Source of the DNA: Candidatus Eiseniibacteriota bacterium | GTDB taxonomy: Bacteria > Eisenbacteria > RBG-16-71-46 > SZUA-252 | Length of the DNA: 64,000 bases | Direction: 5' to 3' | NCBI GenBank assembly: GCA_036505295.1 | Contig: DASXTQ010000019.1 | Location: 4,446-68,445, forward strand | Part shown: one piece after another, positions 5,507 to 58,657 of the stretch | How the letters are laid out: each line of letters opens with the position of its first letter | Position numbering within the stretch: the first letter of the stretch is position 1 | Program-made: the position numbers and the translations under genes | The notes under the pieces: generated by a model | What the model was told of the DNA's origin: nothing | What the model saw: only the letters and a program-made list of their open reading frames with translations | The model's database searches: none

Positions 5507-5792
5507 CACCCCCCGGCTGAGTCTCGACCGGCCGGCTCGAATCCGGCCATTCCCGCAGGGCAAATTCGATTCTGGGTTGCAATCTGCATGACGCCCCCAC
5601 CTTCCGCGTGGGCGCTGCAAGGTGCGGCGATCGACGCGTTTGCAAACGGGTCCGGCTTGCCGAGTTAGTGGGACGGCGTGGTGCGAGCGCGGGGCCCATC
5701 CGTGGCATGCCTCTTGCGGTCCAAGCCCGCGCTAAGTCTCTGCGATTCAAGGGAAGAGCGCAGCGCCGAGACATCTCATCGATCCGAGGCCC

Positions 5793-14005: not shown

Positions 14006-14030
14006 CCGCACGCGGCGACGAGACGCGTCG

Positions 14031-16496
14031 ATGAGTCCCAGGGCTGGACCGACCCGCCGCTTCCAGCTTCGAGTCCCAGCCGAGGACCGCCATCTCGCCG
14101 AGATCCGCGACTTCATCCAGGACGTCGGCGAGAAGATTCAGATACCCGGAAAGATCCTCGCCAACACGAAACTCGCGGTAGACGAAGCCTGCACCAACAT
14201 CGTGAAGCACGGTTACAAGGGGAAGACCGGCTTCATCGAAGTCGTGGTGACGGGAAACCAGCGCGAGTTCTCCATGGAGATCCGGGACCAGGGCGAAAGC
14301 TTCGACCTCCGCAACGTCAAGAGCCCCGATCTCAAGATGTACGTGGAGACGAGGAAGCGCGGCGGGCTCGGCGTCTTCCTGATGAATCAGCTCATGGACG
14401 ACGTCCGCTATCGCGGGGGCCCGGACGGCAACGTCCTCACGATGTCGAAGCATCTCGGGCGACGGCGTCGGGGGGTGGGAAAAGAGGGCGGGCGTCCCCG
14501 CTCGCTCCGTTTCGCGTACACCCTTCAGGCGTTCGGCGCGATGACGTTCCTCGTCGCGGTCGCCTTCGGCGTGATCCACACGCGGCAGATGCAAAGCATC
14601 CGCGGAGAAGCGATGTCCCACGCCCGAAGCGTCGCGCGCGGGCTCGCGCTTCCGGCGGCGGAGGTGCTCTCGCGGCCCGAGCCGATGTCGATCGAGCAGA
14701 CGCTCCTGAATCAGTCCATCCGCGCCGCGCTCCGGGCAAACCCGGAATACGTGTCGGCGCGCGTCCTCGATACGGCCGGGCGCGTGTGGGGCAGCAACCG
14801 ATTCGAGGAGCTCTTCACCACGGAGCGAAGCGGGCTGAGGCAAGGATCCGGAGCGGGCCTCGGCAACCAGTGGGCGCCCCCCCGCTACCTCGTGAGCAAC
14901 GGCGTCGGCACGATCGTCGAGCCAGTGCGGGCAGGCGCGACGGGGAAGGCGCTGGCCACCGTGCTCGGCTACGTGCAGATCGGCATCAGCGAGCAGGCGA
15001 TCGGCGCACGAATCGTGGCGGCGCGCGCCGAGCTTGCGGGGATCGCGCTTCTCACGCTGTTTCTCGGCTGCCTTCTCTCGATGCTCCTGATCGGAATCTT
15101 CGTGCGGCCGATCCAGGCGCTCTCCGACAGCGTGCGCGCGATCGGCGAAGGAACGATGGTGGCCGACGTCGGCGCTTCCGGGAACGAGGAGATCGACGAG
15201 ATCGCGCGCGCGTTCAACGAGATCACGGCCAAGTTCCGCGCGGCCCAGGGCAATCTCGTCGAACAGGAGCGCCTTCAGAAGGAGATGCAGGTCGCGCAGG
15301 AGATCCAGCAGAGCCTCCTTCCCCGGCGGGTGCCGGAGCTGGAGGGCTACGAGATCGGAGCGCTCTACCGCGCGGCCAAGGAGGTCGGAGGGGACTATTA
15401 CGATTTCGTGCAAGTCGACGAGCGGACGGTGGGCGTCGTGGTCGCGGACGTGTCGGGCAAGGGAGTCCCTGGCTCGCTCGTCATGACGATGATCCGGACC
15501 GCGCTTCGCATGGAGGCGCGCGGGAATCGGTCGGCCTCGGACGTCATGGCCCGAATGAACACGTTCGTCACCGAGGACATGAAGAAGGGGATGTTCGTGA
15601 CGATGTTCTATGTGGTGCTGGATTCGGTGAACCGCGTCGTGACCTACGCCAGCGCGGGGCACAATCCGATGATCCTCTACCGCGGCGAGACGGACTCGAC
15701 CTACTTCCTGAAACCGAAAGGGATTCCCGTGGGGATCGACGCGCCGGACGCGGATCTCTTCCGCCGCACCATCAGCGTCGAACGGCTCACGCTCAAGCAG
15801 GAAGATATGATCGTGATCTACACCGACGGAATCACGGAGGCCATGAATCCCATGCGGGAGCAGTTTGGCGAGGCGAGGCTTCTCGGCGCGATCAAGAGGC
15901 ACGCGCATCTCAGCGCGCAGGGGTTCTCGGAGGCGTTGGACCGGGAGATCCATGAGTTCACCGCGGGCGCGCTCCAGAACGACGACATCACGCTGGTCGC
16001 GATCAAAGAAAAGGTGCAGCCCGAGGAGCGCATCGAATCGAAGCGGCGCGAGCTTTTCCGGCTCGTCGAGCAGGAGGGGGTGCCCGTCGGGGAAGCGTGT
16101 GACCGGCTGCAGGTCGCACCGTCGACCTACTACCGCTATCGCCGCCGGGTGGCCGAAGTGGGAGGGGAGGAAGGCCTGAAGAGCATTCGCCCGCGCTCAG
16201 GGCTCGCGAAGGCGAGCCTCGAGGAAGAGGCGGCCATCCTTTCGCTCGTGAAAGCGGAGCCTCTCATGGGGGCCAAACGGGTCGCGGAGCTGCTCCGGGC
16301 GACGGGCCGCTCGAGCCCTAATTTGACCCCGGCCGCGGTCTACGCAACCCTAAGGCGTCACGGACTTAACACGAAGGAAAAAAGGCTCGAGTTCGCCCAA
16401 AACGGAACCGATAGACGTATGGCAAGGCTGGCCCAGGCGCTTTCGGGGGCTACCCGGGCCGACCGCGCCCCAGAAGAACAAGGAGGGGGAGAATGA
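14031..16496 (+). CDS. Partner-switching fusion protein: RsbW-like anti-sigma Ser kinase (HATPase_c_2) + 2 TM/HAMP + PP2C/SpoIIE phosphatase + C-terminal IS481/IS3-type HTH domain
   Basis: N-terminal KLAVDEACTNIVKHGY...GGLGVFLMNQLMDDVRY (GHKL anti-sigma kinase). Two TM segments flank a HAMP-like linker. GGDYYDFV...VVVADVSGKGVPGSL (PP2C). The C-terminus APSTYYRYRRRVAE..GLKSIRPRS...AKRVAELLRATG...AAVYATLRRHGL resembles the transposase N-terminal HTH (HTH_23/HTH_21). Confidence 0.8.
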   Translation: MSPRAGPTRRFQLRVPAEDRHLAEIRDFIQDVGEKIQIPGKILANTKLAVDEACTNIVKHGYKGKTGFIEVVVTGNQREFSMEIRDQGESFDLRNVKSPDLKMYVETRKRGGLGVFLMNQLMDDVRYRGGPDGNVLTMSKHLGRRRRGVGKEGGRPRSLRFAYTLQAFGAMTFLVAVAFGVIHTRQMQSIRGEAMSHARSVARGLALPAAEVLSRPEPMSIEQTLLNQSIRAALRANPEYVSARVLDTAGRVWGSNRFEELFTTERSGLRQGSGAGLGNQWAPPRYLVSNGVGTIVEPVRAGATGKALATVLGYVQIGISEQAIGARIVAARAELAGIALLTLFLGCLLSMLLIGIFVRPIQALSDSVRAIGEGTMVADVGASGNEEIDEIARAFNEITAKFRAAQGNLVEQERLQKEMQVAQEIQQSLLPRRVPELEGYEIGALYRAAKEVGGDYYDFVQVDERTVGVVVADVSGKGVPGSLVMTMIRTALRMEARGNRSASDVMARMNTFVTEDMKKGMFVTMFYVVLDSVNRVVTYASAGHNPMILYRGETDSTYFLKPKGIPVGIDAPDADLFRRTISVERLTLKQEDMIVIYTDGITEAMNPMREQFGEARLLGAIKRHAHLSAQGFSEALDREIHEFTAGALQNDDITLVAIKEKVQPEERIESKRRELFRLVEQEGVPVGEACDRLQVAPSTYYRYRRRVAEVGGEEGLKSIRPRSGLAKASLEEEAAILSLVKAEPLMGAKRVAELLRATGRSSPNLTPAAVYATLRRHGLNTKEKRLEFAQNGTDRRMARLAQALSGATRADRAPEEQGGGE

Positions 16497-17170
16497 AGGG
16501 AATCGACGTCTACGTCGAAGAGGCGTCCCAAAACCAAGGTGTGTCGATTCTGCGCGTCTCCGGCTACGTGGACACCACGACGAGCCCCGATCTGGAGCGG
16601 CGTCTCCAAGCGCTGCTCCGCGAGAAGCGCTACCATGTGGTGGTGGACCTCGCGCGCGTGGAATACATCTCGAGCGCCGGCTGGGGAATATTCATCAGCG
16701 AAATCCGCGAAATCCGCGAGCACGGCGGCGACCTGAAGCTCGCCGGGATGGCTCCCGACGTCAAGGAGGTCTTCGACCTTCTCGAGTTCGAGAACATCTT
16801 GCAGGCGTATACGGACGCCGACCTCGCGGTCGCCTCCTTTGGGCCGATCGTGCCGGCGAATACCACCACGATTCCGGGCTCTGGGGCCGGCGGGGCGCCT
16901 CATTCGGCATCCGAAGCCCATGGCCCGCAACGCAGCGAGACGGTCCTCTCCGACGAGGACCTCGTGCGCGAGATCGTGCGCCAGCACCCCGATTACGGCC
17001 TCATGAGGATCCAGAAAGATCTCCGGAAACCGGAGCGCGGCGGGCGCGAGATGAACCCTGTGCAGCTCTACGTGCTCCTCCGCAGGCTCGAGCTCGACAC
17101 GCGCGAGCGCCGCGAAGCGTTCGCCAAGGGAGACGCCCCGGCGGCCAGTTCGAGCCCAACGAGAAGCTGA
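16493..17170 (+). CDS. STAS-domain anti-sigma-factor antagonist with C-terminal HTH_21-like (integrase-type) extension
   Basis: The start overlaps the upstream stop (ATGA). SILRVSGYVDTTTSPDLERRLQALL...VVVDLARVEYISSAGWGIF (SpoIIAA-like STAS). The C-terminus DLVREIVRQHPDYGLMRIQKDLRK...NPVQLYVLLRRLEL resembles the IS3/IS481 HTH-like domain. Confidence 0.8.
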   Translation: MKGIDVYVEEASQNQGVSILRVSGYVDTTTSPDLERRLQALLREKRYHVVVDLARVEYISSAGWGIFISEIREIREHGGDLKLAGMAPDVKEVFDLLEFENILQAYTDADLAVASFGPIVPANTTTIPGSGAGGAPHSASEAHGPQRSETVLSDEDLVREIVRQHPDYGLMRIQKDLRKPERGGREMNPVQLYVLLRRLELDTRERREAFAKGDAPAASSSPTRS

Positions 17171-19530: not shown

Positions 19531-19638
19531 GGCGCCCACTCGAGCCGCCGGCATCCAACACCCCGAGAGCAAAGGCGCTCCCCGAGCGCCGCCGATCCTA
19601 CCGACAGCTCCCCCCGCCTCCTCTAAAGGGGGAATCCC

Positions 19639-21390
19639 ATGCCGCTCATTCTCGGGCGCAAGCCCGCGTACTGTCTCGCCACCCTCGTCTTGCTCGCCGC
19701 GCACGTTTCGCGTTCGGACGCCGAAATTCTCCTGAACGAAGTGTTGTACGACCCCGAGGGGGCCGATGAGGGATCGGAGTTCGTGGAACTTTGGAATCCG
19801 GACACCGCCGCCATTTCGCTCCGTGGGATCGTCGTGGAGTCGGGCGATGGCTCGCGGCCCGGGGTTTGGACCCCGGTGTACGTGGGAACGGACGGCGACT
19901 CGGTGTCTCCCCGGCACGCGTTTCTGATCCCGGGGTCTGTCCTTCTCGCTCCCCTCCAGAACGGTCCCGACGCGATTCGTCTGACCCGCGCGGGCGTCGT
20001 GCTCGACCTCTTGGGTTACGGGGCGCTCACGGCAAGCGAGCTCTTTGAGGGCGCGCCCGCCGCGGACGCGCCATCCGGACAATCCCTCTCCCGTGCCGGC
20101 GATGGTGTGGACACCCAATGGAACGCAGCGGACTGGGCGCCCGAACCAAGCCCCACGCCGGGGCGCGCGAACCACCCCGACGTCCGGCTCTCCTTCACGC
20201 GCGGAAGCGCCCGTCTCGTGCCGGATGTCCCCTGGCCGGGGGATGTCGCGACCCTGCGCGCGACCGTGAAGAATCTCGGGCGCCTGGCGGTCCCGGCGGC
20301 TCGATGGCAAGCCGAGGTCGTCGTGCGTGTCGGAGATGGACCGGATCGCCCGTGGTCCGCCGCGCCGGTGGGGATCAGCCCAGGCTCGACCGTCGCTCCG
20401 GGAGAAAGCGCGAGCGTTCAATGCGCGCTCTTCGCGCCTCCGCCCGGGAGGTTCGGTCTCCGGCTTTCCCTGCGCGATCTCGGCGTCGAGCCCTTGACAG
20501 ATGGGTCCGCGGTCACGGATACCGCGCTCCTTGAGACGCGGTCGACGGCCGGCCCGCTCGTCGTGAACGAAATCGCGTTCCGGGATCGAGGGGCGGGGGA
20601 ATGGGTCGAGCTGATGGCGCGGGAGGAAGTCGCGGACGTGGGCCTCTTCGCTCTTTCCGACGCGGGCGGCCGCGCCTATTCGATCGATCGGGGGCCGACA
20701 CCGCGCCCCGCTCACGCGGGGGCGATCTTTGTGCTCGCGCAGTCGCCCGAGATAGTGCGCACGACCTATTCGCTTCCGGACAGCGCGGTCCTGGGATGCC
20801 TCGGCGGCTGGGTGGCCCTCAACGACGCCGATGGGGATGACGGTTTCGCCGACCGTGTGCGCGTCGTCGATGCGTCCGGCGCACCGTCGGATGTCGTCCC
20901 CTATCGCGCGGGATACACCGCGCGGGACGGATCGCTCGAGCGCCTCGGAACGATGCTCCCCAGCGCGTCGGCGAGCTCTTGGACGGAATCGATCGACCCT
21001 CGAGCAGGAACGCCGGCTCGGCCGAACTCGATTCAGGCCCCCGGGAAGGGAGCGGGTGACCGGGGCGCGCTTCTCATCGCGAGCGCCCGGGTGGTTCGGA
21101 GGGCGCCCGGACTGGCGGTCGCCCCGGTCGTGCTGCGATTCAGCGAGGAGGCGCGCGGGAGCCGAGTCCGCGTCTTCGTGCACGACCTCCTGGGCCGTCC
21201 GCGGCGGCTCCTCGTCGACGGGCAGCGAATCCTGGGTGAAGGAGCGTTTCTCTGGGACGGGCGCGACGACCAGGGTGCTCCCGTGCCGGCCGGGATCTAC
21301 ATCGTGCGGGCCGAAACGATTCCGGAAGACCGCGAGCCCATCAGGAGCGCAGCCCTCACGCTCTCCGTGGTGGATCGGTGGACGCGATGA
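19639..21390 (+). CDS. Secreted lamin-tail-domain (LTD) protein with two LTDs and a FlgD-Ig/T9SS-like C-terminal domain
   Basis: A strong RBS (AAGGGGGAA) is followed by a signal peptide. ILLNEVLYDPEG.DEGSEFVELWNP and LVVNEIAFRDRGAGEWVELM are LTD signatures. The C-terminus (RVFVHDLLGRPRRLL...FLWDGRDDQGAPVPAGIYIVRAE) is sorting-domain-like. Confidence 0.8.
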   Translation: MPLILGRKPAYCLATLVLLAAHVSRSDAEILLNEVLYDPEGADEGSEFVELWNPDTAAISLRGIVVESGDGSRPGVWTPVYVGTDGDSVSPRHAFLIPGSVLLAPLQNGPDAIRLTRAGVVLDLLGYGALTASELFEGAPAADAPSGQSLSRAGDGVDTQWNAADWAPEPSPTPGRANHPDVRLSFTRGSARLVPDVPWPGDVATLRATVKNLGRLAVPAARWQAEVVVRVGDGPDRPWSAAPVGISPGSTVAPGESASVQCALFAPPPGRFGLRLSLRDLGVEPLTDGSAVTDTALLETRSTAGPLVVNEIAFRDRGAGEWVELMAREEVADVGLFALSDAGGRAYSIDRGPTPRPAHAGAIFVLAQSPEIVRTTYSLPDSAVLGCLGGWVALNDADGDDGFADRVRVVDASGAPSDVVPYRAGYTARDGSLERLGTMLPSASASSWTESIDPRAGTPARPNSIQAPGKGAGDRGALLIASARVVRRAPGLAVAPVVLRFSEEARGSRVRVFVHDLLGRPRRLLVDGQRILGEGAFLWDGRDDQGAPVPAGIYIVRAETIPEDREPIRSAALTLSVVDRWTR

Positions 21391-22289: not shown

Positions 22290-25139
22290 CTAACGGAGGA
22301 GGATCAGCTTCTTCGAAGCCCTGAATCCCTTCGTATCGAGCACGTAGAAGTAGGCTCCGCTCGGGAGCTGGTGCCCCTGATCATCCGCCCCGTTCCAGCG
22401 CGCAACGTACTCGCCGGGAGGCTGGACGTGACTCACCAGCGTGCGGACCAAGGCCCCGCTTACGTTGTAGATGCGGATATCGACCTGGCCCGCTTGTGCC
22501 ACAGAGTAGCGGATCGCGGTCTCGGGATTGAACGGGTTCGGCATGTTTTGCCCGAGGCTGCTCCGGAACGTCGGAGCTTCCTCGCCCGATCCCTCCTCCA
22601 CCCCCGAAGCCACGTAGCAGGCGTTTTCCTTGAAGTAGTTGTGGACGATCGCGTTCGCGAGCTGGAGCCTTTCGCCCCCTTCCTCGATGGCGTTGAAGCT
22701 GAAGCCGAAGAAGACGGACTTCGCGCTGTCCGCCGGGCTGAACGTGTTGTAATCGGTGGCGTAACGCGTCGCGGCGGGGAAACTGTTGGGATACGTGAGC
22801 AGGTTGCCCGACTTGCCCTGGTTCGCGGCCGGGGAAAGGGTGACCAGGTCAAACTGATTGATGATGGGGCAGCCCCCGTTCAGGTGCATGAACCGCCCCG
22901 CCGCGGGACCCCCGTTCACCCCTTTCACGACAGGATGGAGCGTGTCCTGAGGGGAGTTTTCCCAGTTATTCCGCAGCCAGGTCACGCCGCACGTGAAGGC
23001 GAGGAAGCCGTTGTAGTTGTTCGCGCCGCTGTTTGCCATGAGATCGTAGCCAACGTCGTCCCCGCTGATCCAGAAATTGCGGTTCTTCCCCGGCTGCTGG
23101 ATCCAGGATTGGATCACCGCCTGATCCTGAGGCGTGATGGTGAACGTGGAGAGATCCCCCGAGTGCCAGATGATCGTGGTGTACTGAAGCAGCTTGCCGA
23201 CGTCCGTCACCGGCCAGTGGTACTGGATATCGGCCGGGTCGGAGCCGCCGAGGCAGTTTCCAATTCCGCTCGTCGGACCGTTCACATCCCATGTGTCGTA
23301 CTTGAACCCGAGCCCGGTGAGCGCGGAGGCGATGTACGGTTGCGGCTCGCGCCCCGAGAAGTGATTCACGAAGAGGATCGACGCGAGGCTGTCGCTGCAC
23401 CCCATGGGCAGGTTGATGGCGGTCTTCACGGGCAGGATCGAAGCCGAGCGATAGTTCTGGTTCGTGATCGCGTCGACCGGGAAATAGGCGGTGACGTTCT
23501 GGCTGTCCGTCGCCGCGAAGTAGTACTCCAGCTTCGTATTCGCCGGGTAGCTTCCGGGGGGGACGTCGGCGAAGAAATGGGTCGGGAGCGCCGGCGCCAC
23601 GTGTTGGAGCGGGACCGAGTTGAACGACCCGCCGTTCAATCTGTAGAACATGAAGCCGTTCTTGTACCCGTGGGACGTGCTGACCTGCACGACGGTGCTG
23701 TCGCCGAGCGGGCTGTTGAAGTTATCGTCTCGGAAGAACGGGGTCGTCTCGAACGTGTCGTTGAAAAGGTCTATATCGCGCACGATGAAGCCGGGACCGG
23801 TCTGGCCGATGACTCCGATTGCGACGTTGTCGAACAACCCATACGTGTTCGAGGGAGACGAATTGCCGCCACAAAAGATGTCGGCGTAATCTCGGAGGCC
23901 CAACTCCACCTGCACGGAATCCTTTCCGCCCGCTCCAGGCAGCGTGATGGCCTGGCGGATCCAGTCTTTGTTCCCCCCGTAATAAACAAAGAAGGTCGGG
24001 TCGATCCAATTTCCCCACTGGGCGTCACCGATGTTCTTGGTCCGAAAATTCGTGTGGTAGAAGAAGCACGAGTTGAGCGGAAGGTTTCGGTAGACATCGA
24101 AATTGAGAAAGACGGTGCTGGCCCGGTTGGTCGCGACCGGCTTGGTCACGACGAAGTTGTCCAGATGGGGAACCAAGGTCAGGGTGGCCTGGTTCCAGTC
24201 GGTCCAGACCTTCGATTGATTCGTGGAACATATGTCCTCGGTCAGGACGTTGCTTTGGAGATAGAAGAAGTCGCCCGCGCCGAGGAACGTGGACCGCGTC
24301 CAATTTCCCATCCCGTTTTCCACGTTGTCAGAGAAAAGGACGTTCTGCCCCGTCTTGACGGTGATGTTGTCGATGATCCAGCCATCTCCATCGTAAAGTC
24401 CATCTGCGGAGGAGTAACCGACATCGCTGACAAACGTGAATCGGAACGGCACCGGAAGAGGATTGTTGCCGGTGCCGTCGTTTCCCGCGCGCCATTTCGA
24501 GATGATGGAATCGGGAATGATCACCGAGAAGGTGTCGCAAAGGGAGCTATTCGGGACTTTCCCCGTAAAGAAGGCGAGCTGGGTCCAGTTGTTTATGAGG
24601 TCGTTCACTTCGACATACCCATAGTCATAAAGGGGCTCGGCGTCGAAATGATGCCTGAAGCTGAGCGTCGCGGACGACCCCGATGGGACGGAGCCCGTGG
24701 GGAAAGAGTTCGTGAGGTATTGGGTCCAGTCGTTGTCGTACCCAGCGCGATTCGAGTCGTAGATCCAGGAAGAATCGACGGTCCCGCACCACCACGAATG
24801 GTTCTGGCACCCGAGGAAGGTATCGATGTGCCATGCGGTCGGCTTCGCGGAGGCGTCGTAGTGGGTCCACCCTCCCTCGTTGTTCGGGCTGGTGTGCGTC
24901 TCGAGACTGTCGATGAACACCCAGACCGTCTCTCCCGCGGCCGCGGTGCGCATCGATCGCCCGGCGCGGGCCGGGGGCGATCCCACATCGGGCCCCGCCT
25001 CGGGGATCTGCGTCGGGACGACACCCGGGAGGATCGTCTCACCGGTCGCCGCGGGCGCGTTCGAAGAGGCCGCAGAGCTGCCGTAAAGGGATGCCGAGAG
25101 AATGAGACACACAATCAACGCGGTAGCACTACGTCGCAT
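22290..25139 (-). CDS. Large secreted protein (950 aa) with type-A T9SS/FlgD-Ig C-terminal sorting domain
   Basis: Start at internal Met (MRRSATALIVCLILSASLYG signal peptide). The C-terminus NPFNPETAIRYSVAQAGQVDIRIYNVSGALVRTL...ARWNGADDQGHQLPSGAYFYVLDTKGFRASKKLILLR matches the T9SS CTD. The body is Trp/Asn/Gly-rich beta-rich, and no HExxH was seen. Confidence 0.8.
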   Translation of the reverse strand: MRRSATALIVCLILSASLYGSSAASSNAPAATGETILPGVVPTQIPEAGPDVGSPPARAGRSMRTAAAGETVWVFIDSLETHTSPNNEGGWTHYDASAKPTAWHIDTFLGCQNHSWWCGTVDSSWIYDSNRAGYDNDWTQYLTNSFPTGSVPSGSSATLSFRHHFDAEPLYDYGYVEVNDLINNWTQLAFFTGKVPNSSLCDTFSVIIPDSIISKWRAGNDGTGNNPLPVPFRFTFVSDVGYSSADGLYDGDGWIIDNITVKTGQNVLFSDNVENGMGNWTRSTFLGAGDFFYLQSNVLTEDICSTNQSKVWTDWNQATLTLVPHLDNFVVTKPVATNRASTVFLNFDVYRNLPLNSCFFYHTNFRTKNIGDAQWGNWIDPTFFVYYGGNKDWIRQAITLPGAGGKDSVQVELGLRDYADIFCGGNSSPSNTYGLFDNVAIGVIGQTGPGFIVRDIDLFNDTFETTPFFRDDNFNSPLGDSTVVQVSTSHGYKNGFMFYRLNGGSFNSVPLQHVAPALPTHFFADVPPGSYPANTKLEYYFAATDSQNVTAYFPVDAITNQNYRSASILPVKTAINLPMGCSDSLASILFVNHFSGREPQPYIASALTGLGFKYDTWDVNGPTSGIGNCLGGSDPADIQYHWPVTDVGKLLQYTTIIWHSGDLSTFTITPQDQAVIQSWIQQPGKNRNFWISGDDVGYDLMANSGANNYNGFLAFTCGVTWLRNNWENSPQDTLHPVVKGVNGGPAAGRFMHLNGGCPIINQFDLVTLSPAANQGKSGNLLTYPNSFPAATRYATDYNTFSPADSAKSVFFGFSFNAIEEGGERLQLANAIVHNYFKENACYVASGVEEGSGEEAPTFRSSLGQNMPNPFNPETAIRYSVAQAGQVDIRIYNVSGALVRTLVSHVQPPGEYVARWNGADDQGHQLPSGAYFYVLDTKGFRASKKLILLR

Positions 25140-25499
25140 GGGGGAGCTCCTTCTGGATCGATCGACTGGTGCGGAAAGAAGGTGGATTCGAATCGATGCC
25201 CGATCTCGAGGGCGCTCCGGGGCGAAGGACAAGCCTGGCACGGCGGGACATCTAACGGCAGACCGGCACGGGCTGGGCATGTCGCCTCGGGGAGACCTCG
25301 CATGCTGGATAGTTGCGACATCCGCTCCCCGACCGCGACAGCCATTCGGAAGCGGCGTGCAGTATTATACTCGATCAGGGACCTCACTTCCACCGAAATC
25401 GGCTGGGCTGTTGGGTTTGTCGCATCCTTGCGAGGCTCGCGCCGGGCTCGATCGCGCTGGTCCAGGGCGGCGTTGTTGCCCCTGGGACCCTCTGCTATC

Positions 25500-31847: not shown

Positions 31848-31910
31848 TCGTCCGTTCCACCCGATGGTTCCAAAGACGCCCCGACGAAACCGCGCTACGG
31901 CGCAAGGAGA

Positions 31911-32579
31911 ATGCACATGGTTCGTTGGGGAGGTGTCGTGTGGGCGCTCGTGACTGCCGTCGCCGCGGCGGTCGCGATCGAGGCGGTATCGGTGCGTGAT
32001 GCGGAGGGAGACGGGCGGGCCGGGGCCGGGCTCAGGCTCAATGAGATCCTCGCGGCTCCGGCGCGCGATTGGGACGGGGACGGGCTCTACGATTCGAAGG
32101 ACGACGAGTGGGTCGAGATCCAAAACGTGGGCCCGGACGTGCTCGCGATCGACGAGTACCGGCTTGGCGACGGCGTCAGGACGGTGCGTTTCGGCTTCTC
32201 GGGAACGATTGCCCCGGGCGAGGTGAAGCTCGTCGCGGGGAGCGCGGCGGTGGCGTGGCAGCGCTCGCGGGGGCTCACGACGGCAGGCTTGAGCCTCAAC
32301 AATTCCGGAGACCAGGTGTACCTGTTGCGCGTGACGGGACCCGACACGACCACCATCGATACCCACGCGTACGGAAGCATCGAGGGTGGAAGCGACCGGT
32401 CCGTGGGTCGTGCGAGCACGGGGAGCGAGGACTGGATTCTCTTCGACTCACTGAATCGCTACACCGGGACCGGGACGCCGGCGGGAACGGGCTGTTCGCC
32501 CACTCCGGGAGGCGTGAACGGGTGCACGACGGACGTGAGCTCCAAGACCTGGGGGGCGATCAAGAGGCTGTATCAGTGA
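31911..32579 (+). CDS. Secreted lamin-tail-domain (LTD) protein
   Basis: AAGGAGA RBS, then a signal peptide. LRLNEILAAP...DEWVEIQNVGPDVLAIDEYRLGDG is the LTD signature. Confidence 0.75.
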   Translation: MHMVRWGGVVWALVTAVAAAVAIEAVSVRDAEGDGRAGAGLRLNEILAAPARDWDGDGLYDSKDDEWVEIQNVGPDVLAIDEYRLGDGVRTVRFGFSGTIAPGEVKLVAGSAAVAWQRSRGLTTAGLSLNNSGDQVYLLRVTGPDTTTIDTHAYGSIEGGSDRSVGRASTGSEDWILFDSLNRYTGTGTPAGTGCSPTPGGVNGCTTDVSSKTWGAIKRLYQ

Positions 32580-35693: not shown

Positions 35694-36023
35694 ATGACCG
35701 CCGCGGACTCCAGCCACCCCATCGCGTGCAATCTCCACGCATTTTCCGCGCGGGAGCGGGAGCGGCATGCATCCTTACTGCAAGGGGTGAGCGCAAGGAT
35801 TCTCGAAACGCGCGAGCTTTCGGACGGCTTCGCATTCCGATTCGCGGCGGAGGGCGAAACGATTGCCGAGCTGGCGGAGTGGATTGGCCTCGAGCGAATG
35901 TGCTGTCCCTTCCTGCGATTCTCGATCGAGGTTGAGGCGAACGCGGGCCCGGTGTGGCTTCGGTTGACGGGGAGCGCCCAGGTCAAAGCCTTCGTCGGGT
36001 CGGCCTTCCACACGCAACGCTAA
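35694..36023 (+). CDS. Hypothetical protein
   Basis: Compact ORF with non-repetitive composition. No recognisable family. Confidence 0.4.
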   Translation: MTAADSSHPIACNLHAFSARERERHASLLQGVSARILETRELSDGFAFRFAAEGETIAELAEWIGLERMCCPFLRFSIEVEANAGPVWLRLTGSAQVKAFVGSAFHTQR

Positions 36024-36028
36024 CCCCC

Positions 36029-36481
36029 ATGAGCCTCAAACGAACAGCCCTCCTATCGGCGGCGTCGGGTTGTGCATGGGGGGCGATTGCCTATCTGCTC
36101 GCGGGTCGTATGGTAGGAAAGGGCATCTGGGGCGGCGTGCTGGTCTCGCCCTTGATCGGGGTCCTCGTGGGCCTGACTGCGGCAAGGCTTCGCAAGCTGC
36201 CGGCCGGCGGCCGTGCCTTCGTCTCGCTCGTGGGTCTCTACGGCGCCACCTTCCTGTTCGGCCTCGCAGTCGGGCTGGGCGGCCTCGCGACAGGCGTGAA
36301 CCGCGGCGAGGGCTCGCACCGTATCCCAAGCGCGGTAATCATGCAGTCGGCGGTGGGATTCCTGTGGGGACTCACATTCATGGGTTACATTCTCGTCCTC
36401 TGGCCTCTCTCGTACCTGAACTGCTGGCTGATCTGGAAACAAGCCGATGCGCGGAATGAGCCCATCGAGTCAGGGGGGTAA
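36029..36481 (+). CDS. Small polytopic membrane protein
   Basis: Four hydrophobic segments. ATG at 36029. Confidence 0.55.
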   Translation: MSLKRTALLSAASGCAWGAIAYLLAGRMVGKGIWGGVLVSPLIGVLVGLTAARLRKLPAGGRAFVSLVGLYGATFLFGLAVGLGGLATGVNRGEGSHRIPSAVIMQSAVGFLWGLTFMGYILVLWPLSYLNCWLIWKQADARNEPIESGG

Positions 36482-37011: not shown

Positions 37012-37635
37012 GTGCCGAGGCTCTCGCGCCGTCGAGTCGCGTTGGTGCTCCTCCTTGCCGTTGCGACGCTCTCATGCGCCAGGTCGCAGGAGGAGGGCCG
37101 GTGGGGCCGTGGACGGGAACCGGGGAGGCTCAATCGGCTCGACCGGACCACGCTTGCCGCCCTGCGCGACTCCTTCAATGCCGCGATCGATCGCCCGAGG
37201 ATCCTCGTGATGCTGTCGCCGACCTGAGGGACGTGTCTGCGGGGGGCCTCCGCGGTGGCGGCGATTCTCAAGACCCGTGCGGGCACGCCGGTCCGCGCCT
37301 TCGTCGTGTGGGAGCCGGTCCTCTGGACCGATGCCTTCCGCCCGTCCGATGGCGTCCTGTCACGGTACGTCTCCGACGCGCGAGCCACCCACTGGTGGGA
37401 CCCGGACCGGAGCCTGTCCGAAGAGATTCTTCGATCCCCGTGGACGAGGAAGTACCCCGTTCGAGGGGGACCGCTGAAGACCGTGTGGGACTGGGTGGCG
37501 TGCTACCCTCCTGGTGCACGGTGGGAGGCGGACTTCCCCGAGCCGATCGTCCAGGATTTCCCTGTCGTCGATTCCGCCGATCGCGTGGGCGATTGGCTCG
37601 GCGGCGCTGCAGCCGCCGTGGGACCAGATCCATAA
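37012..37635 (+). CDS. Candidate selenoprotein: secreted thioredoxin-fold-like protein with in-frame UGA (37225-37227) in a U-G-T-C redox motif
   Basis: GTG start plus signal peptide (MPRLSRRRVALVLLLAVATLSCA). The single frame continues through a TGA in the context ILVMLSPT-U-GTCLRG (a thioredoxin-like xxCxxC position). A GC hairpin with a GG-containing loop begins 10 nt after the UGA. The two halves are otherwise separate sub-100-aa ORFs. Confidence 0.4.
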
Positions 37636-37651
37636 AACGGGAGTGATCAGG

Positions 37652-39145
37652 GTGAATCAGAAGCTCGACCAGAACCCCCGGCTGGAAGAAGAAGAATCGC
37701 TCGATCCGCAAGACTGGAGCGACATGCGCCGCCTGGGCCATTGCATGGTGGACGACGTCATGGATTATCTGGAGCGTGTCCGCGAGCGTCCGGTATGGCG
37801 ACCTGTTCCGGAAAACGTCAAGGCCGCGCTGCGCTCTCCGCTTCCCGTCGAGGGACAGGGTGCCGGGGCGGTGTATGAGGATTTCCGCCGCACGGTGTTC
37901 CCGCACGGAATGGGGAACGTCCACCCTCGTTTCTGGGGCTGGGTGATCGGGACGGGGACGCCGCTCGGCGCTCTCGCCGACATGTTGGGTGCCGCCATGA
38001 ACCCGAACATCGGGGGCGGCGACCAGGCCCCGAACTATGTCGAGCTCCAAGTTCTGACCTGGCTCAAAGAGATGCTCGGCTATCCGGCAGCCGCGAGCGG
38101 GCTCTTGGTCAGCGGCGGCTCGATGGCGAATCTGGTCGGCCTCGCGGTGGCGAGGAACGCAAAGGCAGAGGTGGATATCGCGCAGGAGGGGGTCGCCGCA
38201 GCGGGGCGCACCATGACGCTTTACGCGTCGGCGGAGACCCACAACTCGGTGAGGAAAAGCGTTTCGCTCCTCGGGCTCGGGCGCGCAGCATTGCGGGAGA
38301 TCCCGGTGGACGATGCCTACCGGATCGATCTCGCGGCGCTGCGCCGGGCGATCGACGAGGACCGCAAGGCCGGACGGCATCCGTTCTGCGTTGTGGGCAA
38401 CGCAGGCACGGTCAACACCGGCGCGATCGACGATCTATCCGCGATCGCCGAGATCTGCGCGGCTGAGAATCTCTGGTTCCACGTCGACGGCGCGTTCGGC
38501 GCGCTCGCCGCTCTCTCGCCGCGACTGAAGCCGCTCGTCCGAGGGATGGAGCGTGCCGACTCGCTGGCGTTCGACCTCCACAAATGGATGTACATGCCCT
38601 ACGAGGTCGGATGCGCTCTCGTTCGTTGGCCCGAGCAACATCGTGCGGCGTTCATCTCACCCGCCGATTACCTCGCCCACTTGGACCGCGGCCTTCCCGC
38701 CGGCCCGATCTGGTTCAGCGAGTATGGCGTGCAGCTCTCGCGCGGCTTCCGGGCGCTCAAGGTGTGGATGTCGCTCAAGGAGCACGGCATCTCGAAGTAC
38801 GGGCGTCTGGTGGCGCAGAATTGCGAGCAGGCGCAGTATCTCTCCGCGCTCGTGACCGCAAGTCCGGAGCTGGAGCTGATGGCGCCCGTACTCCTCAACA
38901 TCGTGTGCTTTCGCTTCGCGCCTCGGGGAACGGACGGCGACCGCCTCGACAGGGCAAACGAGGAGATCCTCTTCGGTCTGCAGGAGAGCGGGACTGCGGT
39001 TCCCAGCTCGACCCGCTTGGGCGGACGGCTCGCGCTCCGGGTCTGCATTTGCAACCACCGTACCCGTCGCGAGGACCTCGAGCTGCTCGTGCGCGAGGTC
39101 ATCGAGCGAGGGCACAAGACCATGAGCGAATCCGTCCGTCGATAA
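37652..39145 (+). CDS. PLP-dependent group II amino-acid decarboxylase
   Basis: SGGSMANLVGLAVARN, DLHKWMYMPYEVGCALVR (PLP-Lys in HKW). GTG start after a GGGAG RBS. Confidence 0.8.
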   Translation: MNQKLDQNPRLEEEESLDPQDWSDMRRLGHCMVDDVMDYLERVRERPVWRPVPENVKAALRSPLPVEGQGAGAVYEDFRRTVFPHGMGNVHPRFWGWVIGTGTPLGALADMLGAAMNPNIGGGDQAPNYVELQVLTWLKEMLGYPAAASGLLVSGGSMANLVGLAVARNAKAEVDIAQEGVAAAGRTMTLYASAETHNSVRKSVSLLGLGRAALREIPVDDAYRIDLAALRRAIDEDRKAGRHPFCVVGNAGTVNTGAIDDLSAIAEICAAENLWFHVDGAFGALAALSPRLKPLVRGMERADSLAFDLHKWMYMPYEVGCALVRWPEQHRAAFISPADYLAHLDRGLPAGPIWFSEYGVQLSRGFRALKVWMSLKEHGISKYGRLVAQNCEQAQYLSALVTASPELELMAPVLLNIVCFRFAPRGTDGDRLDRANEEILFGLQESGTAVPSSTRLGGRLALRVCICNHRTRREDLELLVREVIERGHKTMSESVRR

Positions 39146-57658: not shown

Positions 57659-57712
57659 AATGCCGAGAGGGTCGCAGGTCGTCGAGCGCTTCTGGTCGAG
57701 GGCAGGCCGCGA

Positions 57713-58657
57713 ATGAACCGGGCAGGGATTCTTCAGTTGCTCGAGCAGTTCCCCGAAAGGCACCTATCGGCACTTGCGTGGTTCGAGCAGCATGCGGGCC
57801 AGGAGGTTGCGTGGCCGAAGCCGCTGCCGGACGGGACCCTCCTGGCGGCGAAGGCGAAGGGTATTTACAAGCCCGCTTGGTCGAAGTACGCGCTCTCTGT
57901 GCGACAGTCTCTTGGCGGTCCCTATCCCGACCGCGAGATCGAGATGCGACCCGATGGGGGCTGGCGACTCGAGTACTTTCAAGAGGATCTCGATCCCGGA
58001 CGCCGTGATTCGCAGTTCACCAACGTTGGACTGATGGAGTGCTGGAAGGATGTCGTACCGGTGGGGGTCTTGGTTCAAAGTGTCGCCAGGCCGGGCCCTC
58101 GGTACCGCGTCTACGGCCTAGCGCTTGTGACGGGCTGGGACGGCGGGTACTTCTACCTTGAGGGCCTTGCCCGCGGGGATCGCGGCTGGTCTCTCAAGGT
58201 GGTGCCGACGGCGACGACCCGTGCGGATCTCCTCGCGGAGGACTTCGAGCCGACCTCGCTTGAGGACCGCCGGCGCGAGACGAACCGGATGATCGTCCTT
58301 CGTCAGGGTCAACAAGGCTTCCGTCGGGCGCTGCTCTTGGCTTACCAAGGGCGATGCGCAATTACAGGCTGCGATGGGGTGCAAGCCCTCGAGGCCGCGC
58401 ACATCGTACCCTACCGCGGGCTCGTGACGAACCACCCCACGAACGGACTTCTCCTTCGTGCCGACATCCACAACCTGTTCGACCTGGGACTGCTCGCCAT
58501 TGACCCGGCGAACCTCAAAGTGTTGTGGAGCAGCGAGCTTGATGGCACTTCCTACGTGCCGGTGTTGAGAGGGGCGACGGTCCGACGGCCGGTCGACTCG
58601 GGCCTGGCACCGAGCCAGGCTGCGCTGCGAATCCACCGGGAATGGGCTTGTCTATGA
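57713..58657 (+). CDS. HNH_2-family endonuclease with ~230-aa N-terminal putative recognition domain (candidate modification-dependent/Type IV restriction enzyme)
   Basis: C-terminus CAITGCDGVQALEAAHIVPYRG...NGLLLRADIHNLFDLGLLAID is HNH_2. The fold of the N-terminal domain is unassigned. Confidence 0.7.
   Translation: MNRAGILQLLEQFPERHLSALAWFEQHAGQEVAWPKPLPDGTLLAAKAKGIYKPAWSKYALSVRQSLGGPYPDREIEMRPDGGWRLEYFQEDLDPGRRDSQFTNVGLMECWKDVVPVGVLVQSVARPGPRYRVYGLALVTGWDGGYFYLEGLARGDRGWSLKVVPTATTRADLLAEDFEPTSLEDRRRETNRMIVLRQGQQGFRRALLLAYQGRCAITGCDGVQALEAAHIVPYRGLVTNHPTNGLLLRADIHNLFDLGLLAIDPANLKVLWSSELDGTSYVPVLRGATVRRPVDSGLAPSQAALRIHREWACL

What the first reader, a model, noticed from the sequence alone, without database searches (positions are those of the whole stretch)
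37012..37635. Candidate UxxC selenoprotein: thioredoxin-like secreted protein with in-frame TGA and SECIS-like hairpin
One reading frame runs from a GTG start with a clear signal peptide, through a TGA at 37225-37227, to a stop at 37635. The TGA sits in the context RILVMLSPT-U-GTC, exactly where a thioredoxin-fold protein has its first redox Cys (WC-G-P-C becomes U-G-T-C). Ten nucleotides downstream begins a GC stem-loop (CUGCGGG-GGGCC-UCCGCGG) with G residues in the apical loop, resembling a bacterial SECIS. Read conventionally, this would be two unusually short, signal-less ORFs.
Basis: partly seen in the sequence, partly recalled or inferred. Interest (0 to 1): 0.7.

Follow-up and report, generated by a model that had tools for sequence, protein, structure and literature searches.

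The report
Exported thioredoxin-fold selenoprotein gene, unannotated family
The in-frame TGA at 37225 is almost certainly a selenocysteine codon in an exported thioredoxin-fold protein. The protein belongs to a large family from soil bacteria that databases list only as truncated "hypothetical proteins" and that usually sits beside mercury-transporter-like genes.

Summary

**The gene.** Window 37012-37635 (+) is one gene of 207 codons. It has a lipoprotein-type signal peptide, then beta1-(U72-G-T-C75)-alpha1 of a thioredoxin fold.

**Evidence that the TGA is read as Sec:**
- The TGA sits at the same column in 149 of 150 related loci, from Ca. Eisenbacteria, many Acidobacteriota and others. Protein conservation runs on both sides of it.
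- Rarer full-length homologues carry Cys there (LSPT-C-xx-C).
- The hairpin at 37237-37255 meets all four published bacterial SECIS constraints.
- Its stem covaries perfectly. Arg CGG pairs with Ser TCC and Gln CAG pairs with Ser TCU, giving GC 95, AU 43 and 1 mismatch.
- Its synonymous sites are frozen in TGA forms but free in the three old Cys forms I could read.

**What family it is.** No Pfam or NCBIfam model matches, and no family in a 2026 catalogue of prokaryotic selenoproteins matches. Public records call the fragments "hypothetical protein".

**Likely function.** In about two thirds of relatives the domain is fused to, or follows, a MerT-like membrane protein. A MerR-family regulator and a DF-family protein lie upstream, and no MerA is nearby. 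This points to periplasmic soft-metal or thiol handling. The window copy is a stand-alone lipoprotein, so its function is only inferred.

**Not verified.** No selA, selB, selC or selD could be checked in the same genome.

The parts
37012..37635 (+). Complete selenoprotein gene: 207 codons including Sec72, plus a TAA stop. The GTG start lies 15 nt after the stop of the upstream DUF4440 gene.
   Evidence: Searches give the frame. Searches show the full-length frame conserved across relatives. One search shows that the closest relative, L015, starts at an equivalent ATG.
37012..37077 (+). Signal peptide ending at Cys22 (37075-37077). It has a lipoprotein-type L-S-C site. The mature protein is predicted to be tethered outside the cytoplasmic membrane.
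   Evidence: Read directly from the sequence. The L-S-C site is conserved in L001, L012, L014, L015 and L016. More distant relatives have an N-in TM anchor or a MerT-like 3-TM domain here. No signal-peptide predictor was available.
37225..37227 (+). UGA read as selenocysteine (residue 72). It is the first position of the U-G-T-C redox or metal-binding motif.
   Evidence: TGA is at this column in 149 of 150 related loci. Cys is there in full-length homologues. TGA is otherwise the ordinary stop in this window, used by 22 of 31 genes.
37234..37236 (+). Cys75, the resolving or second ligand residue of the UxxC motif.
   Evidence: Invariant in all 70 loci and in the Cys forms.
37237..37255 (+). 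Bacterial-type SECIS hairpin. It has a 7-bp stem (CUGCGGG / UCCGCGG) and a GGGCC apical loop, and it lies inside the codons L-R-G-A-S-A-V.
   Evidence: - 95-98% of cells pair, against 30-73% in slid controls.
- Pair 5 is GC 95, AU 43 and 1 mismatch.
- Synonymous sites are frozen.
- Three old Cys forms lack the hairpin.
- It meets the bSECIS model: loop 5 nt, GG at the loop start, 16-nt spacing, -10.8 kcal/mol.
37228..37632 (+). C-terminal 135 residues of the thioredoxin-like domain: alpha1, beta2 (FVVWEP), a helical insert, the WD motif, and the conserved Pro184 (FPVVD). This is the part public databases list as a stand-alone 126-132 aa hypothetical protein.
   Evidence: A profile of this part finds 1,699 cluster representatives at E<=1e-3.

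Best explanation
**What it is.** Window 37012-37635 is a single, intact gene for an exported, lipoprotein-type, thioredoxin-fold selenoprotein.

**How the codon is read.**
- UGA72 is recoded to selenocysteine by the SECIS hairpin that begins 10 nt downstream (37237-37255).
- The agent is presumably a SelB-type elongation factor carrying Sec-tRNA(Sec).
- Sec72 and Cys75 form a U-x-x-C centre at the N-terminus of helix alpha1, the position of the CxxC in TlpA, ResA and CcmG-type oxidoreductases.
- The domain faces the periplasm.

**Family.** It belongs to a large, unnamed family found in Ca. Eisenbacteria, Acidobacteriota and a few others. In that family the Sec form is the rule.

**Genomic partners in relatives.**
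- In most relatives the domain is fused to, or encoded just after, a MerT-like membrane protein with a vicinal Cys-Cys in TM1.
- A cytoplasmic DF-family thioredoxin-like protein and a MerR-family metal sensor lie upstream.

**Most likely role.**
- I take it to be the periplasmic selenol/thiol partner of such membrane Cys relays.
- It would either capture soft metal ions (Hg(II)-type) MerP-fashion, or keep exposed thiols reduced under metal stress.
- The window copy is a stand-alone variant of this domain.

**Shown:** a single conserved frame, Sec/Cys alignment, a structured SECIS, the Trx fold (on a homologue), and the gene linkage in relatives.

**Inferred:** SelB dependence, lipidation, periplasmic location, and biochemical activity.

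**My probabilities:** genuine Sec-encoding gene about 0.93; soft-metal-related role for the family about 0.5; the same role for the window copy about 0.35.
For: **One conserved frame through the TGA.**
- Frame and motif.
- TGA at the same column in 8 of 8 first loci, 62 of 62 GTDB species genomes and 79 of 80 metagenome loci.
- Invariant residues lie on both sides of the TGA: L43, F55, N56, R63, S69, P70 and T71 upstream; C75, R77, G78, A79 and S80 downstream.
- Cys homologues carry LSPT-C-xx-C.

**The hairpin.**
- 2-3 covarying pairs, and 0 of 500 shuffles reach the observed score.
- Pooled pair 5 is GC 95, AU 43 and 1 mismatch, and 138 of 139 loops start with GG.
- Synonymous entropy is 0-0.26 bit at the hairpin codons. 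It is 1.1-1.9 bit at equally conserved codons elsewhere.
- Cys forms L081-L083 encode the same peptide with other codons and no hairpin.
- L137 is TGT with the hairpin still intact, which suggests a recent Sec-to-Cys change.
- All four bSECIS constraints are met.

**TGA is not reassigned.** It is the normal stop in 22 of 31 window genes.

**Fold.**
- AF2 model pLDDT 90.9, with C72 just before H73-88.
- The window protein is 42% identical to the modelled homologue over its full length.

**Genomic context in relatives.**
- A MerT-like domain is upstream or fused in 50 of 70 and 50 of 64 loci. MerR is present in about 27 and 32 loci. DF family is present in 20 and 32 loci.
- Fusions to HMA (P0133) and to MerT-like (P0149, L010) occur.

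**Sec trait in the main host phylum.** It is documented in Acidobacteria (PMC1794560 Table 2, PMC12013277 Table 2).
Against: - No selA, selB, selD or tRNA-Sec could be shown for this genome or any relative. None is in the window or in 60 loci. No paper in the searchable library mentions selenocysteine together with Eisenbacteria.
- The hairpin's folding energy alone is unremarkable for this GC content.
- No Rfam family matches.
- The structure model is of a Cys homologue, not the window protein.
- The functional inference rests on relatives. The window has no MerT, MerR or DF genes anywhere in its 64 kb. Its own conserved neighbour is a PLP-dependent decarboxylase.
- No MerA-type reductase lies within about 10 kb in any locus, so these are not canonical mer operons.
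- A selenolate would bind Hg(II) so tightly that hand-off to thiols is chemically awkward. This favours a redox or sequestering role over a MerP-like shuttle.
Confidence: 0.85

Rival explanations
1. It is a genuine selenoprotein, but it acts purely as an extracytoplasmic thiol-disulfide reductase or peroxidase of the TlpA, ResA or GPx type. It would have no direct role in metal binding. The MerT-like protein and the DF protein would then form a CcdA/DsbD-like electron relay that re-reduces it.
For: - The closest structures are ResA, CcmG, DsbE, TlpA, YkuV and GPx7/8.
- UxxC at the alpha1 N-cap is the classic redox geometry.
- A conserved Pro184 lies where Trx-fold enzymes have the cis-Pro.
- Sec is normally selected for catalysis.
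- No MerA is nearby.
- The layout of cytoplasmic Trx-like protein, Cys-bearing membrane protein and periplasmic Trx-like protein mirrors the Trx-CcdA-ResA system.
- The window copy has no metal genes around it.
Against: - The regulator is a MerR-family metal sensor with the Cys82, Cys117 and Cys132 pattern.
- The membrane partner matches MerT, MerTP and MerC models, not CcdA or DsbD.
- HMA fusions occur, and a subgroup carries an extra vicinal CC.
- Czc, CopZ and ars genes are neighbours.
Confidence: 0.35
2. The TGA is a true stop. The locus would encode two separate small proteins: a 71-aa lipoprotein or anchor peptide and a ~126-aa cytoplasmic protein. The hairpin would serve translational coupling or mRNA stability.
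For: - This is how every public annotation reads it.
- A GTG lies 10 codons after the TGA.
- No Sec machinery has been demonstrated.
Against: - The residues between the TGA and the first possible start (xxC[LV][RQ]GAS) are the most conserved in the family. They would be untranslated in 63 of 70 loci.
- Cys homologues are single full-length proteins with Cys at the TGA column.
- The fold needs beta1 from the upstream part and alpha1 from the downstream part.
- L137 converted TGA to TGT, not to another stop.
Confidence: 0.03
3. The UGA is read through, but not as selenocysteine. Near-cognate Trp or Cys would be inserted, stimulated by the downstream hairpin.
For: - One homologue has Trp (TGG) at the position (P0046).
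- Sec machinery is not verified in these genomes.
Against: - The position is the nucleophilic Cys of a CxxC motif in homologues. Trp would destroy it.
- The hairpin matches the SelB-type bSECIS model in spacing, loop size and GG loop start.
- The main host phylum is documented to decode Sec.
- Holding TGA in 149 of 150 loci, when TGC or TGT is one mutation away, implies TGA encodes something Cys cannot replace.
Confidence: 0.04
4. The locus is a pseudogene, or the TGA is an assembly or sequencing error.
For: None beyond the presence of an in-frame stop.
Against: The identical TGA appears in 149 independently assembled loci from different phyla and projects. Purifying selection is visible on both sides of it.
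Confidence: 0.01

Closest known systems
Extracytoplasmic thioredoxin-fold oxidoreductases of the TlpA / ResA / CcmG (DsbE) / YkuV type
   Same: - The redox motif sits at the alpha1 N-cap.
- Both are tethered outside the membrane by a lipoprotein signal or a TM anchor.
   Different: - No detectable sequence membership. There is no Pfam AhpC-TSA, Redoxin or Thioredoxin hit, even at E<=10. The best PDB sequence match has E 0.39. Structural alignments show about 10% identity.
- It has its own signature: FNAA...LSPT-U-xx-C-[LV]-[RQ]-GAS ... FVVWEP ... WD ... P-V-V.
- Sec replaces the first Cys in nearly all members.
Known thioredoxin-like UxxC selenoprotein families: Sec-Trx, Sec-Grx, DsbA-like, DsbG-like, thiol:disulfide interchange protein, Redoxin family, SaoT, and the HUIPC-motif family. 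These are listed in Table 1 of PMC13188914.
   Same: - Same logic: Sec replaces the attacking Cys of a CxxC in a Trx fold.
- A SECIS hairpin lies directly after the UGA.
- Cys-containing homologues exist.
   Different: - None of the Pfam or NCBIfam models that define those families matches this protein.
- Here Sec forms far outnumber Cys forms: 149 of 150 sampled loci, and about 130 of the top 150 cluster representatives. In most families Cys forms dominate (statement in PMC12013277).
- The hosts are mainly soil Acidobacteriota and Eisenbacteria.
MerP and MerT-MerP fusions of mercury-resistance operons
   Same: - It is a periplasmic two-thiol(ate) protein encoded next to, or fused C-terminally to, a MerT-type membrane protein with a CC pair in TM1.
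- It is under a MerR-family regulator.
- NF033556 MerTP_fusion matches the membrane part weakly.
   Different: - The fold is thioredoxin, not the HMA ferredoxin-like fold.
- The MerT-like partners score below the curated cut-offs of all NCBIfam MerT models.
- No MerA lies nearby.
- The window copy has no MerT or MerR at all.
Heavy-metal-associated selenoproteins already catalogued: putative mercuric transport protein PF02411, the MerT/CopZ fusion-like selenoprotein NF045683, the SAO system, HgcA/B, and the DF family NF049942.
   Same: - The theme is the same: Sec within Cys-rich metal-trafficking systems.
- The DF-family protein is a direct operon neighbour in many Acidobacteria.
   Different: - In those families the Sec is in the transporter, the chaperone or the DF protein itself.
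- Here those partners are Cys forms, and the Sec is in a separate Trx-fold domain that has no model in those libraries.

Membership tests
Bacterial selenoprotein gene (UGA-Sec recoding) | An in-frame UGA conserved at the same column in orthologues, with coding conservation on both sides | tested here: met
   149 of 150 loci carry the TGA. Invariant residues flank it on both sides.
Bacterial selenoprotein gene (UGA-Sec recoding) | Homologues with Cys aligned to the UGA | tested here: met
   P0027, P0037, P0054, P0063, P0070, P0101, P0130, P0144, P0146 and P0152 have LSPT-C-xx-C. L137 has TGT.
Bacterial selenoprotein gene (UGA-Sec recoding) | A bSECIS hairpin immediately downstream: loop 3-9 nt, stem 4-16 bp, G in the first two loop positions, 16-37 nt from the UGA to the loop, and MFE <= -7.5 kcal/mol (PMC13188914 Fig. 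2) | tested here: met
   Loop GGGCC, 7-bp stem, 16-nt spacing, -10.8 kcal/mol. Covariation and frozen synonymous sites support it.
Bacterial selenoprotein gene (UGA-Sec recoding) | selA, selB, selC (tRNA-Sec) and selD present in the same genome | not testable with these tools
   None is in the 64-kb window or in 60 fetched loci. Whole genomes could not be scanned. The Sec trait is documented only for the phylum Acidobacteria.
Bacterial selenoprotein gene (UGA-Sec recoding) | Selenium physically present in the protein (75Se labelling or MS) | not testable with these tools
   This needs an experiment.
Thioredoxin-fold thiol-disulfide oxidoreductases (TlpA/ResA/CcmG-like) | A thioredoxin fold with the CxxC at the N-terminus of alpha1 following beta1 | tested here: met
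   - AF2 model of the 42%-identical Cys homologue P0070: pLDDT 90.9, E63-68, C72/C75, H73-88.
- The window protein itself could not be modelled.
Thioredoxin-fold thiol-disulfide oxidoreductases (TlpA/ResA/CcmG-like) | Sequence membership in Pfam AhpC-TSA, Redoxin, Thioredoxin_2 or Thioredoxin_8, or similarity to solved members | tested here: not met
   No Pfam hit. The profile against PDB sequences gives a best E of 0.39.
Thioredoxin-fold thiol-disulfide oxidoreductases (TlpA/ResA/CcmG-like) | A cis-proline loop facing the active site | tested here: inconclusive
   An invariant Pro (P184, FPVVD) precedes the strand at the expected place. Model coordinates could not be inspected.
MerP-type periplasmic mercury-binding protein | HMA (beta-alpha-beta-beta-alpha-beta) fold with GMTCxxC | tested here: not met
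   The fold is thioredoxin-like. There is no HMA Pfam hit except in the separate C-terminal domain of the fusion P0133.
MerP-type periplasmic mercury-binding protein | Encoded in a mer operon with merR, merT and merA | tested here: not met
   - The window has no merR, merT or merA.
- Relatives have MerR-family and MerT-like genes.
- No MerA motif lies within about 10 kb.
Catalogued Trx-like selenoprotein families with NCBIfam models (SaoT NF040730, HUIPC NF047660, VPGUxxT NF041383, DsbG-like NF041057 and others) | A match to the family HMM | tested here: not met
   NCBIfam release 20 scan of 8 full-length members at E<=1. The only hit for the Trx-like domain is noise: GrdB-type models at E 0.06-0.3. 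MerTP_fusion hits the fused membrane part of L010.

The most novel reading that the evidence does not exclude
This gene would represent a previously unrecognised, almost obligately selenocysteine-containing protein family, with about 1,700 clusters at 50% identity. That would make it one of the commonest selenoproteins of soil Acidobacteriota and Eisenbacteria.

It would be the periplasmic component of a MerA-less relay controlled by a MerR-family sensor. The other components are the DF-family protein and a MerT-like protein. The relay would be selenium-dependent and would handle soft metals such as Hg(II), or metal-damaged thiols, at the cell envelope.

If so, selenium use in aerobic soil bacteria would be substantially under-counted, because every gene caller splits the gene.
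Probability: 0.4. Interest if true: 0.72.

Novelty: new member of a known kind. Interest (0 to 1): 0.58.

Why it matters
- **Annotation.** The locus, and more than a thousand relatives, are mis-annotated in every public source I looked at. They appear as one or two short hypothetical proteins. Recognising the Sec codon restores a complete exported redox or metal-binding protein.
- **Selenium biology.** It adds a family to the prokaryotic selenoproteome in phyla regarded as selenoprotein-poor. The 2006 survey counted 3 families in Acidobacteria. Sec is almost never replaced by Cys here, which argues that selenium is functionally required.
- **Metal biology.** The recurrent link to a MerR-family sensor, a DF-family (seleno)protein and a MerT-like membrane protein defines a testable new envelope system for soft-metal or thiol stress. 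At least one carrier is cultured (Acidobacteriaceae bacterium KBS 96).
- **RNA.** The SECIS shows textbook covariation between an amino-acid-changing site (Arg/Gln) and a synonymous site (Ser TCC/TCU). It is a useful positive control for SECIS predictors.

Tried and rejected
- **Single-sequence folding.** Folding the TGA-proximal region gave non-significant z-scores, so energy alone does not establish the hairpin.
- **Rfam.** No family matched at gathering threshold over the window, or at E<=10 over 37100-37400. The only match was a spurious miRNA.
- **ARAGORN.** Its only window hit is a 92-nt "tRNA-Arg(CCT)" at 58520-58611. It lies inside an HNH-endonuclease ORF and Rfam does not support it, so I rejected it as tRNA-Sec. 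No tRNA-Sec was found in 60 related loci.
- **Sec machinery by Pfam.** About 40 window ORFs gave no SelA, SelB or SelD. The weak SepSecS/SpcS match of the downstream PLP decarboxylase (E 1e-4, below cut-off) is generic similarity to other PLP-dependent enzymes: the same protein also weakly matches aminotransferase class-V and cysteine-desulfurase models. I rejected it.
- **Structure prediction.** I used a Cys homologue instead. The afdb50 fold library was unavailable.
- **Plasmid search.** A search with the MerT-like domain found nothing.
- **MerA search.** A regex for the MerA-type redox-active site found none in any locus. The pattern would match the canonical GGTCVNVGCVPSK, but it is not an HMM.
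- **Neighbouring small ORFs.** I checked whether 35694-36023 (CC motif) and 35954-36481 belong to the system. The first has no homologue in related loci. The second is conserved only in L015 and weakly in L003. NCBIfam and Pfam are silent on both.
- **Literature.** Searches for a prior description found none. The terms covered selenoprotein with mer operon, MerT, Acidobacteria or Eisenbacteria. Only open-access literature is covered.
Full report
**1. The observation.**
Reading the window directly confirms the finding.
- A GTG at 37012 lies 15 nt after the stop of the upstream DUF4440 gene. It opens a frame that passes a single TGA at 37225-37227 and ends at TAA 37633-37635.
- The peptide around the TGA is ...DRPRILVMLSPT-*-GTCLRGASAVAAILK...
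- The sequence CUGCGGG-GGGCC-UCCGCGG occupies 37237-37255, beginning at the 10th nucleotide after the UGA.
- The N-terminus (PRLSRRRVALVLLLAVATLS-C22) has the layout of a lipoprotein signal peptide.

On this one sequence the hairpin is not energetically exceptional for a 66% GC genome. The z-scores are +0.85, -0.56 and -1.7, depending on the span folded. The case therefore rests on comparison.

**2. All relatives share the TGA, and the frame is conserved across it.**
- A search with the U-to-C protein returned only fragments: about 120-aa C-terminal pieces, plus one N-terminal piece ending ...MLSPT.
- I fetched the DNA of eight distinct homologues at 39-95% identity. Every one is preceded in the same frame by a ~70-aa ORF ending in a TGA at the identical column.
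- Invariant residues lie upstream of the TGA (L43, F55, N56, R63, S69, P70, T71) and downstream (C75, R77, G78, A79, S80).
- A scan of one genome per GTDB species gave 66 loci. All 62 in which the motif could be located have TGA there.
- A metagenome scan seeded with a profile of Cys forms still gave TGA in 79 of the 80 best loci. The exception (L137) is TGT.
- Only 7 of 70 loci have any start codon at +1 to +3 that could place the invariant Cys+3 in a separately initiated protein.
- TGA is the ordinary stop of 22 of 31 Pfam-supported genes in the window, so the genetic code is standard.

**3. Cys homologues exist.**
- An exhaustive HMMER search with the C-terminal profile found 1,699 cluster representatives at E<=1e-3, and 485 at E<=1e-10.
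- Most top hits start at MRGAS, VRGAS or MCLRGAS, which means they were truncated after the TGA.
- A minority are full-length proteins of 180-260 aa with LSPT-C-xx-C-[LV]-x-GAS. Cys aligns with the TGA, which is the classical criterion.

**4. The hairpin is a real, selected RNA structure.**
- On 67 distinct sequences, 95% of cells pair. With the partner slid by 1-3 columns, 30-73% pair. None of 500 shuffles reaches the observed covariation score.
- Pooled over 139 distinct TGA sequences, stem pair 5 is G-C in 95, A-U in 43 and mismatched in 1.
  - This pair links the second base of the Arg/Gln codon (CGG or CAG) to the synonymous third base of the Ser codon (TCC or TCU).
- Pairs 1 and 3 also show compensatory changes.
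- The loop is GGGCC in 117 of 139 sequences and starts with GG in 138 of 139.
- Synonymous-site entropy is 0-0.26 bit at the hairpin codons. Gly is GGG in 70 of 70, and Ala is GCC in 65 of 68.
- Equally conserved Ser, Pro and Thr codons just upstream, and Val, Val and Pro codons downstream, have 1.1-1.9 bit.
- Three Cys-form genes encode the same CL[RQ]GAS peptide with other codons and have no such hairpin: CTT CGC GGC GCG..., CTA CGC GGC GCT TCG and TTG CAA GGG GCT TCC.
- L137 (TGT) still has the hairpin, as expected for a recent Sec-to-Cys change.
- The element meets all four constraints of the published bacterial SECIS model: 3-9 nt loop, 4-16 bp stem, G in the first two loop positions, 16-37 nt from UGA to loop, and MFE <= -7.5 kcal/mol (PMC13188914 Fig. 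2). Here the values are a 5-nt loop, a 7-bp stem, GG at the loop start, 16 nt and -10.8 kcal/mol.

**5. The fold.**
I therefore modelled the Cys homologue P0070, which is 42% identical to the window protein over its full length, using an 18-sequence alignment.
- The model has pLDDT 90.9. It shows an N-terminal TM helix, then beta1 (63-68), C72-x-x-C75 at the N-cap of alpha1 (73-88), beta2 (94-99) and so on.
- At the sequence level the family is orphan. There is no Pfam or NCBIfam hit, and the best PDB sequence match has E 0.39.

**6. Who has it, and what is next to it.**
- The window is about 84% identical at this gene to a Ca. Eisenbacteria MAG (L015). Its nearest public proteins are 126-132 aa "hypothetical proteins" of Eisenbacteria.
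- Most other carriers are Acidobacteriota (Bryobacterales, Terriglobia, Blastocatellia). They include the isolate Acidobacteriaceae bacterium KBS 96. A Polyangiaceae MAG and a MAG labelled Omnitrophota also carry it.
- Three N-terminal architectures occur. All place the domain outside the cytoplasmic membrane:
  - a lipoprotein signal in the Eisenbacteria clade, which includes the window;
  - a single N-in TM anchor of about 66 aa before U;
  - a fusion to a 3-TM domain with a CC pair in TM1 and a basic Cys-containing loop.
- That membrane domain, fused or encoded immediately upstream, is present in 50 of 70 loci. It is also present in 50 of the 64 metagenome loci that have enough upstream sequence.
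- It matches MerT, MerTP and MerC models weakly (E 1e-4 to 2e-9, below cut-offs). In L007 it matches Pfam MerT above threshold.
- Upstream of the membrane domain lie two more genes:
  - a DF-family (seleno)protein, NF049942 (E 1e-30 in KBS 96);
  - a MerR-family metal sensor with three Cys (C82, C117, C132).
- Other links to metals:
  - a fusion with an HMA domain (P0133);
  - a subgroup with an extra vicinal CC;
  - neighbouring Czc, CopZ-like and ars genes.
- No MerA-type motif occurs within about 10 kb in any locus.
- The window itself has none of these partners anywhere in its 64 kb.
  - Its neighbours are DinB_2, two unannotated small ORFs, DUF4440 and, 17 nt downstream, a group II PLP decarboxylase.
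  - That decarboxylase is syntenic only within the closely related Eisenbacteria clade.

**7. Mechanism.**
- Shown: one conserved reading frame through UGA72, a SECIS-type hairpin under RNA-level selection at the canonical distance, Cys in homologues at that site, a Trx fold with the U/C-x-x-C at the alpha1 N-cap, and an extracytoplasmic address.
- Inferred:
  - SelB with Sec-tRNA(Sec) reads the UGA.
  - The protein is lipidated at Cys22.
  - The selenolate/thiol pair acts on the periplasmic side.
- For the family, I favour a role as the outward-facing partner of a MerT-like Cys relay under a metal-sensing regulator (p about 0.5). That role would be capture or sequestration of soft metals, or repair of metal-blocked or oxidised thiols.
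- A pure TlpA/ResA-like reductase, re-reduced through a DF to MerT-like relay, is a close rival (p about 0.35).
- For the stand-alone window copy, the assignment is weaker still.

**8. Comparison with what is known, and novelty.**
- It works like other UxxC thioredoxin-fold selenoproteins. Structurally it is nearest to TlpA, ResA and CcmG.
- It fails sequence membership in those families and in every selenoprotein family that has a Pfam or NCBIfam model.
- The 2026 catalogue of prokaryotic selenoprotein families (PMC13188914, Table 1) and the 2022 and 2025 discovery papers list nothing that corresponds.
- I therefore rate it a new member (a new family) of a known kind.
- Its unusual features are the near-absence of Cys forms, the abundance in soil phyla, and the MerT-like/DF/MerR linkage.

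**9. Limits.**
- Sec machinery is not verified for any carrier genome.
- The literature search covers open-access text only.
- The structural evidence comes from a homologue.
- Function is inferred from gene neighbourhood in relatives, not in the window.

Noticed in passing
window 58520-58611 (+): ARAGORN calls a 92-nt "tRNA-Arg(CCT)". It lies inside an ORF with an HNH_2 endonuclease domain (57659-58657), and Rfam finds no tRNA there. It is probably a false positive, and it is not a tRNA-Sec.
   Followed up: partly
[not shown]
   Followed up: no
window 5736-12065 (+) and 22290-25364 (-): Two very large secreted-type proteins of 2,109 and 1,024 aa. They have Invasin_D3, Big_1 or MAM-like domains, and C-terminal FlgD_ig/CHU_C (T9SS-like sorting) domains. 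Lamin-tail-domain proteins lie at 19627-21390 and 31848-32579.
   Followed up: no
window 13986-17170 (+): A partner-switching module. It comprises a HATPase_c_2 + HAMP + SpoIIE (PP2C) + HTH protein of 836 aa, followed by a STAS-domain protein.
   Followed up: no
window 35694-36023 (+): A 109-aa ORF with a vicinal Cys pair (LERMCCPFLRF). It lies two genes upstream of the selenoprotein. It has no Pfam or NCBIfam hit and no homologue in the related loci.
   Followed up: partly
window 37652-39145 (+): A group II PLP-dependent decarboxylase lies 17 nt downstream, probably co-transcribed. It is syntenic in all Eisenbacteria-clade loci (L001, L012, L014, L015, L016). Its weak SepSecS/SpcS similarity (E 1e-4) is below cut-off and looks like generic similarity among PLP-dependent enzymes.
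   Followed up: partly
L061 8780-13608 (Acidobacteriaceae bacterium KBS 96): A cultured isolate carries the whole arrangement: a MerR-family gene (8780-9220), a DF-family (seleno)protein NF049942 (9210-9521), a MerT-like gene (9514-9894) and the Sec gene (TGA at 10097). An ArsR-like gene, an ArsM-like methyltransferase and an ACR3/SBF transporter follow.
   Followed up: partly
L137 (metagenome contig Ga0070735_10018288): This is the only TGT (Cys) among the 80 best metagenome loci. It still has the intact SECIS hairpin (CTGCAGGGGGCCTCTGCA), which suggests a very recent Sec-to-Cys replacement.
   Followed up: no
L094 (Ga0209056_10067306): A variant with Ala instead of Arg/Gln (CLAGAS). Its hairpin is rebuilt in a shifted register: GGCGG-GCGCUU-CCGCC. 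It is the single mismatch in the pair-5 count.
   Followed up: no
P0133 (621 aa), P0149 (263 aa), P0046, P0167/P0172: Family variants:
- P0133 is a tandem duplication of the domain plus a C-terminal HMA (GMNCLDC) domain.
- P0149 is a Cys-form fusion to a MerT-like domain.
- P0046 has Trp (TGG) at the Sec column.
- P0167 and P0172 have Ser there (SPT-S-GAC).
- A subgroup carries an additional conserved vicinal CC (PxCC[KT]R).
   Followed up: no
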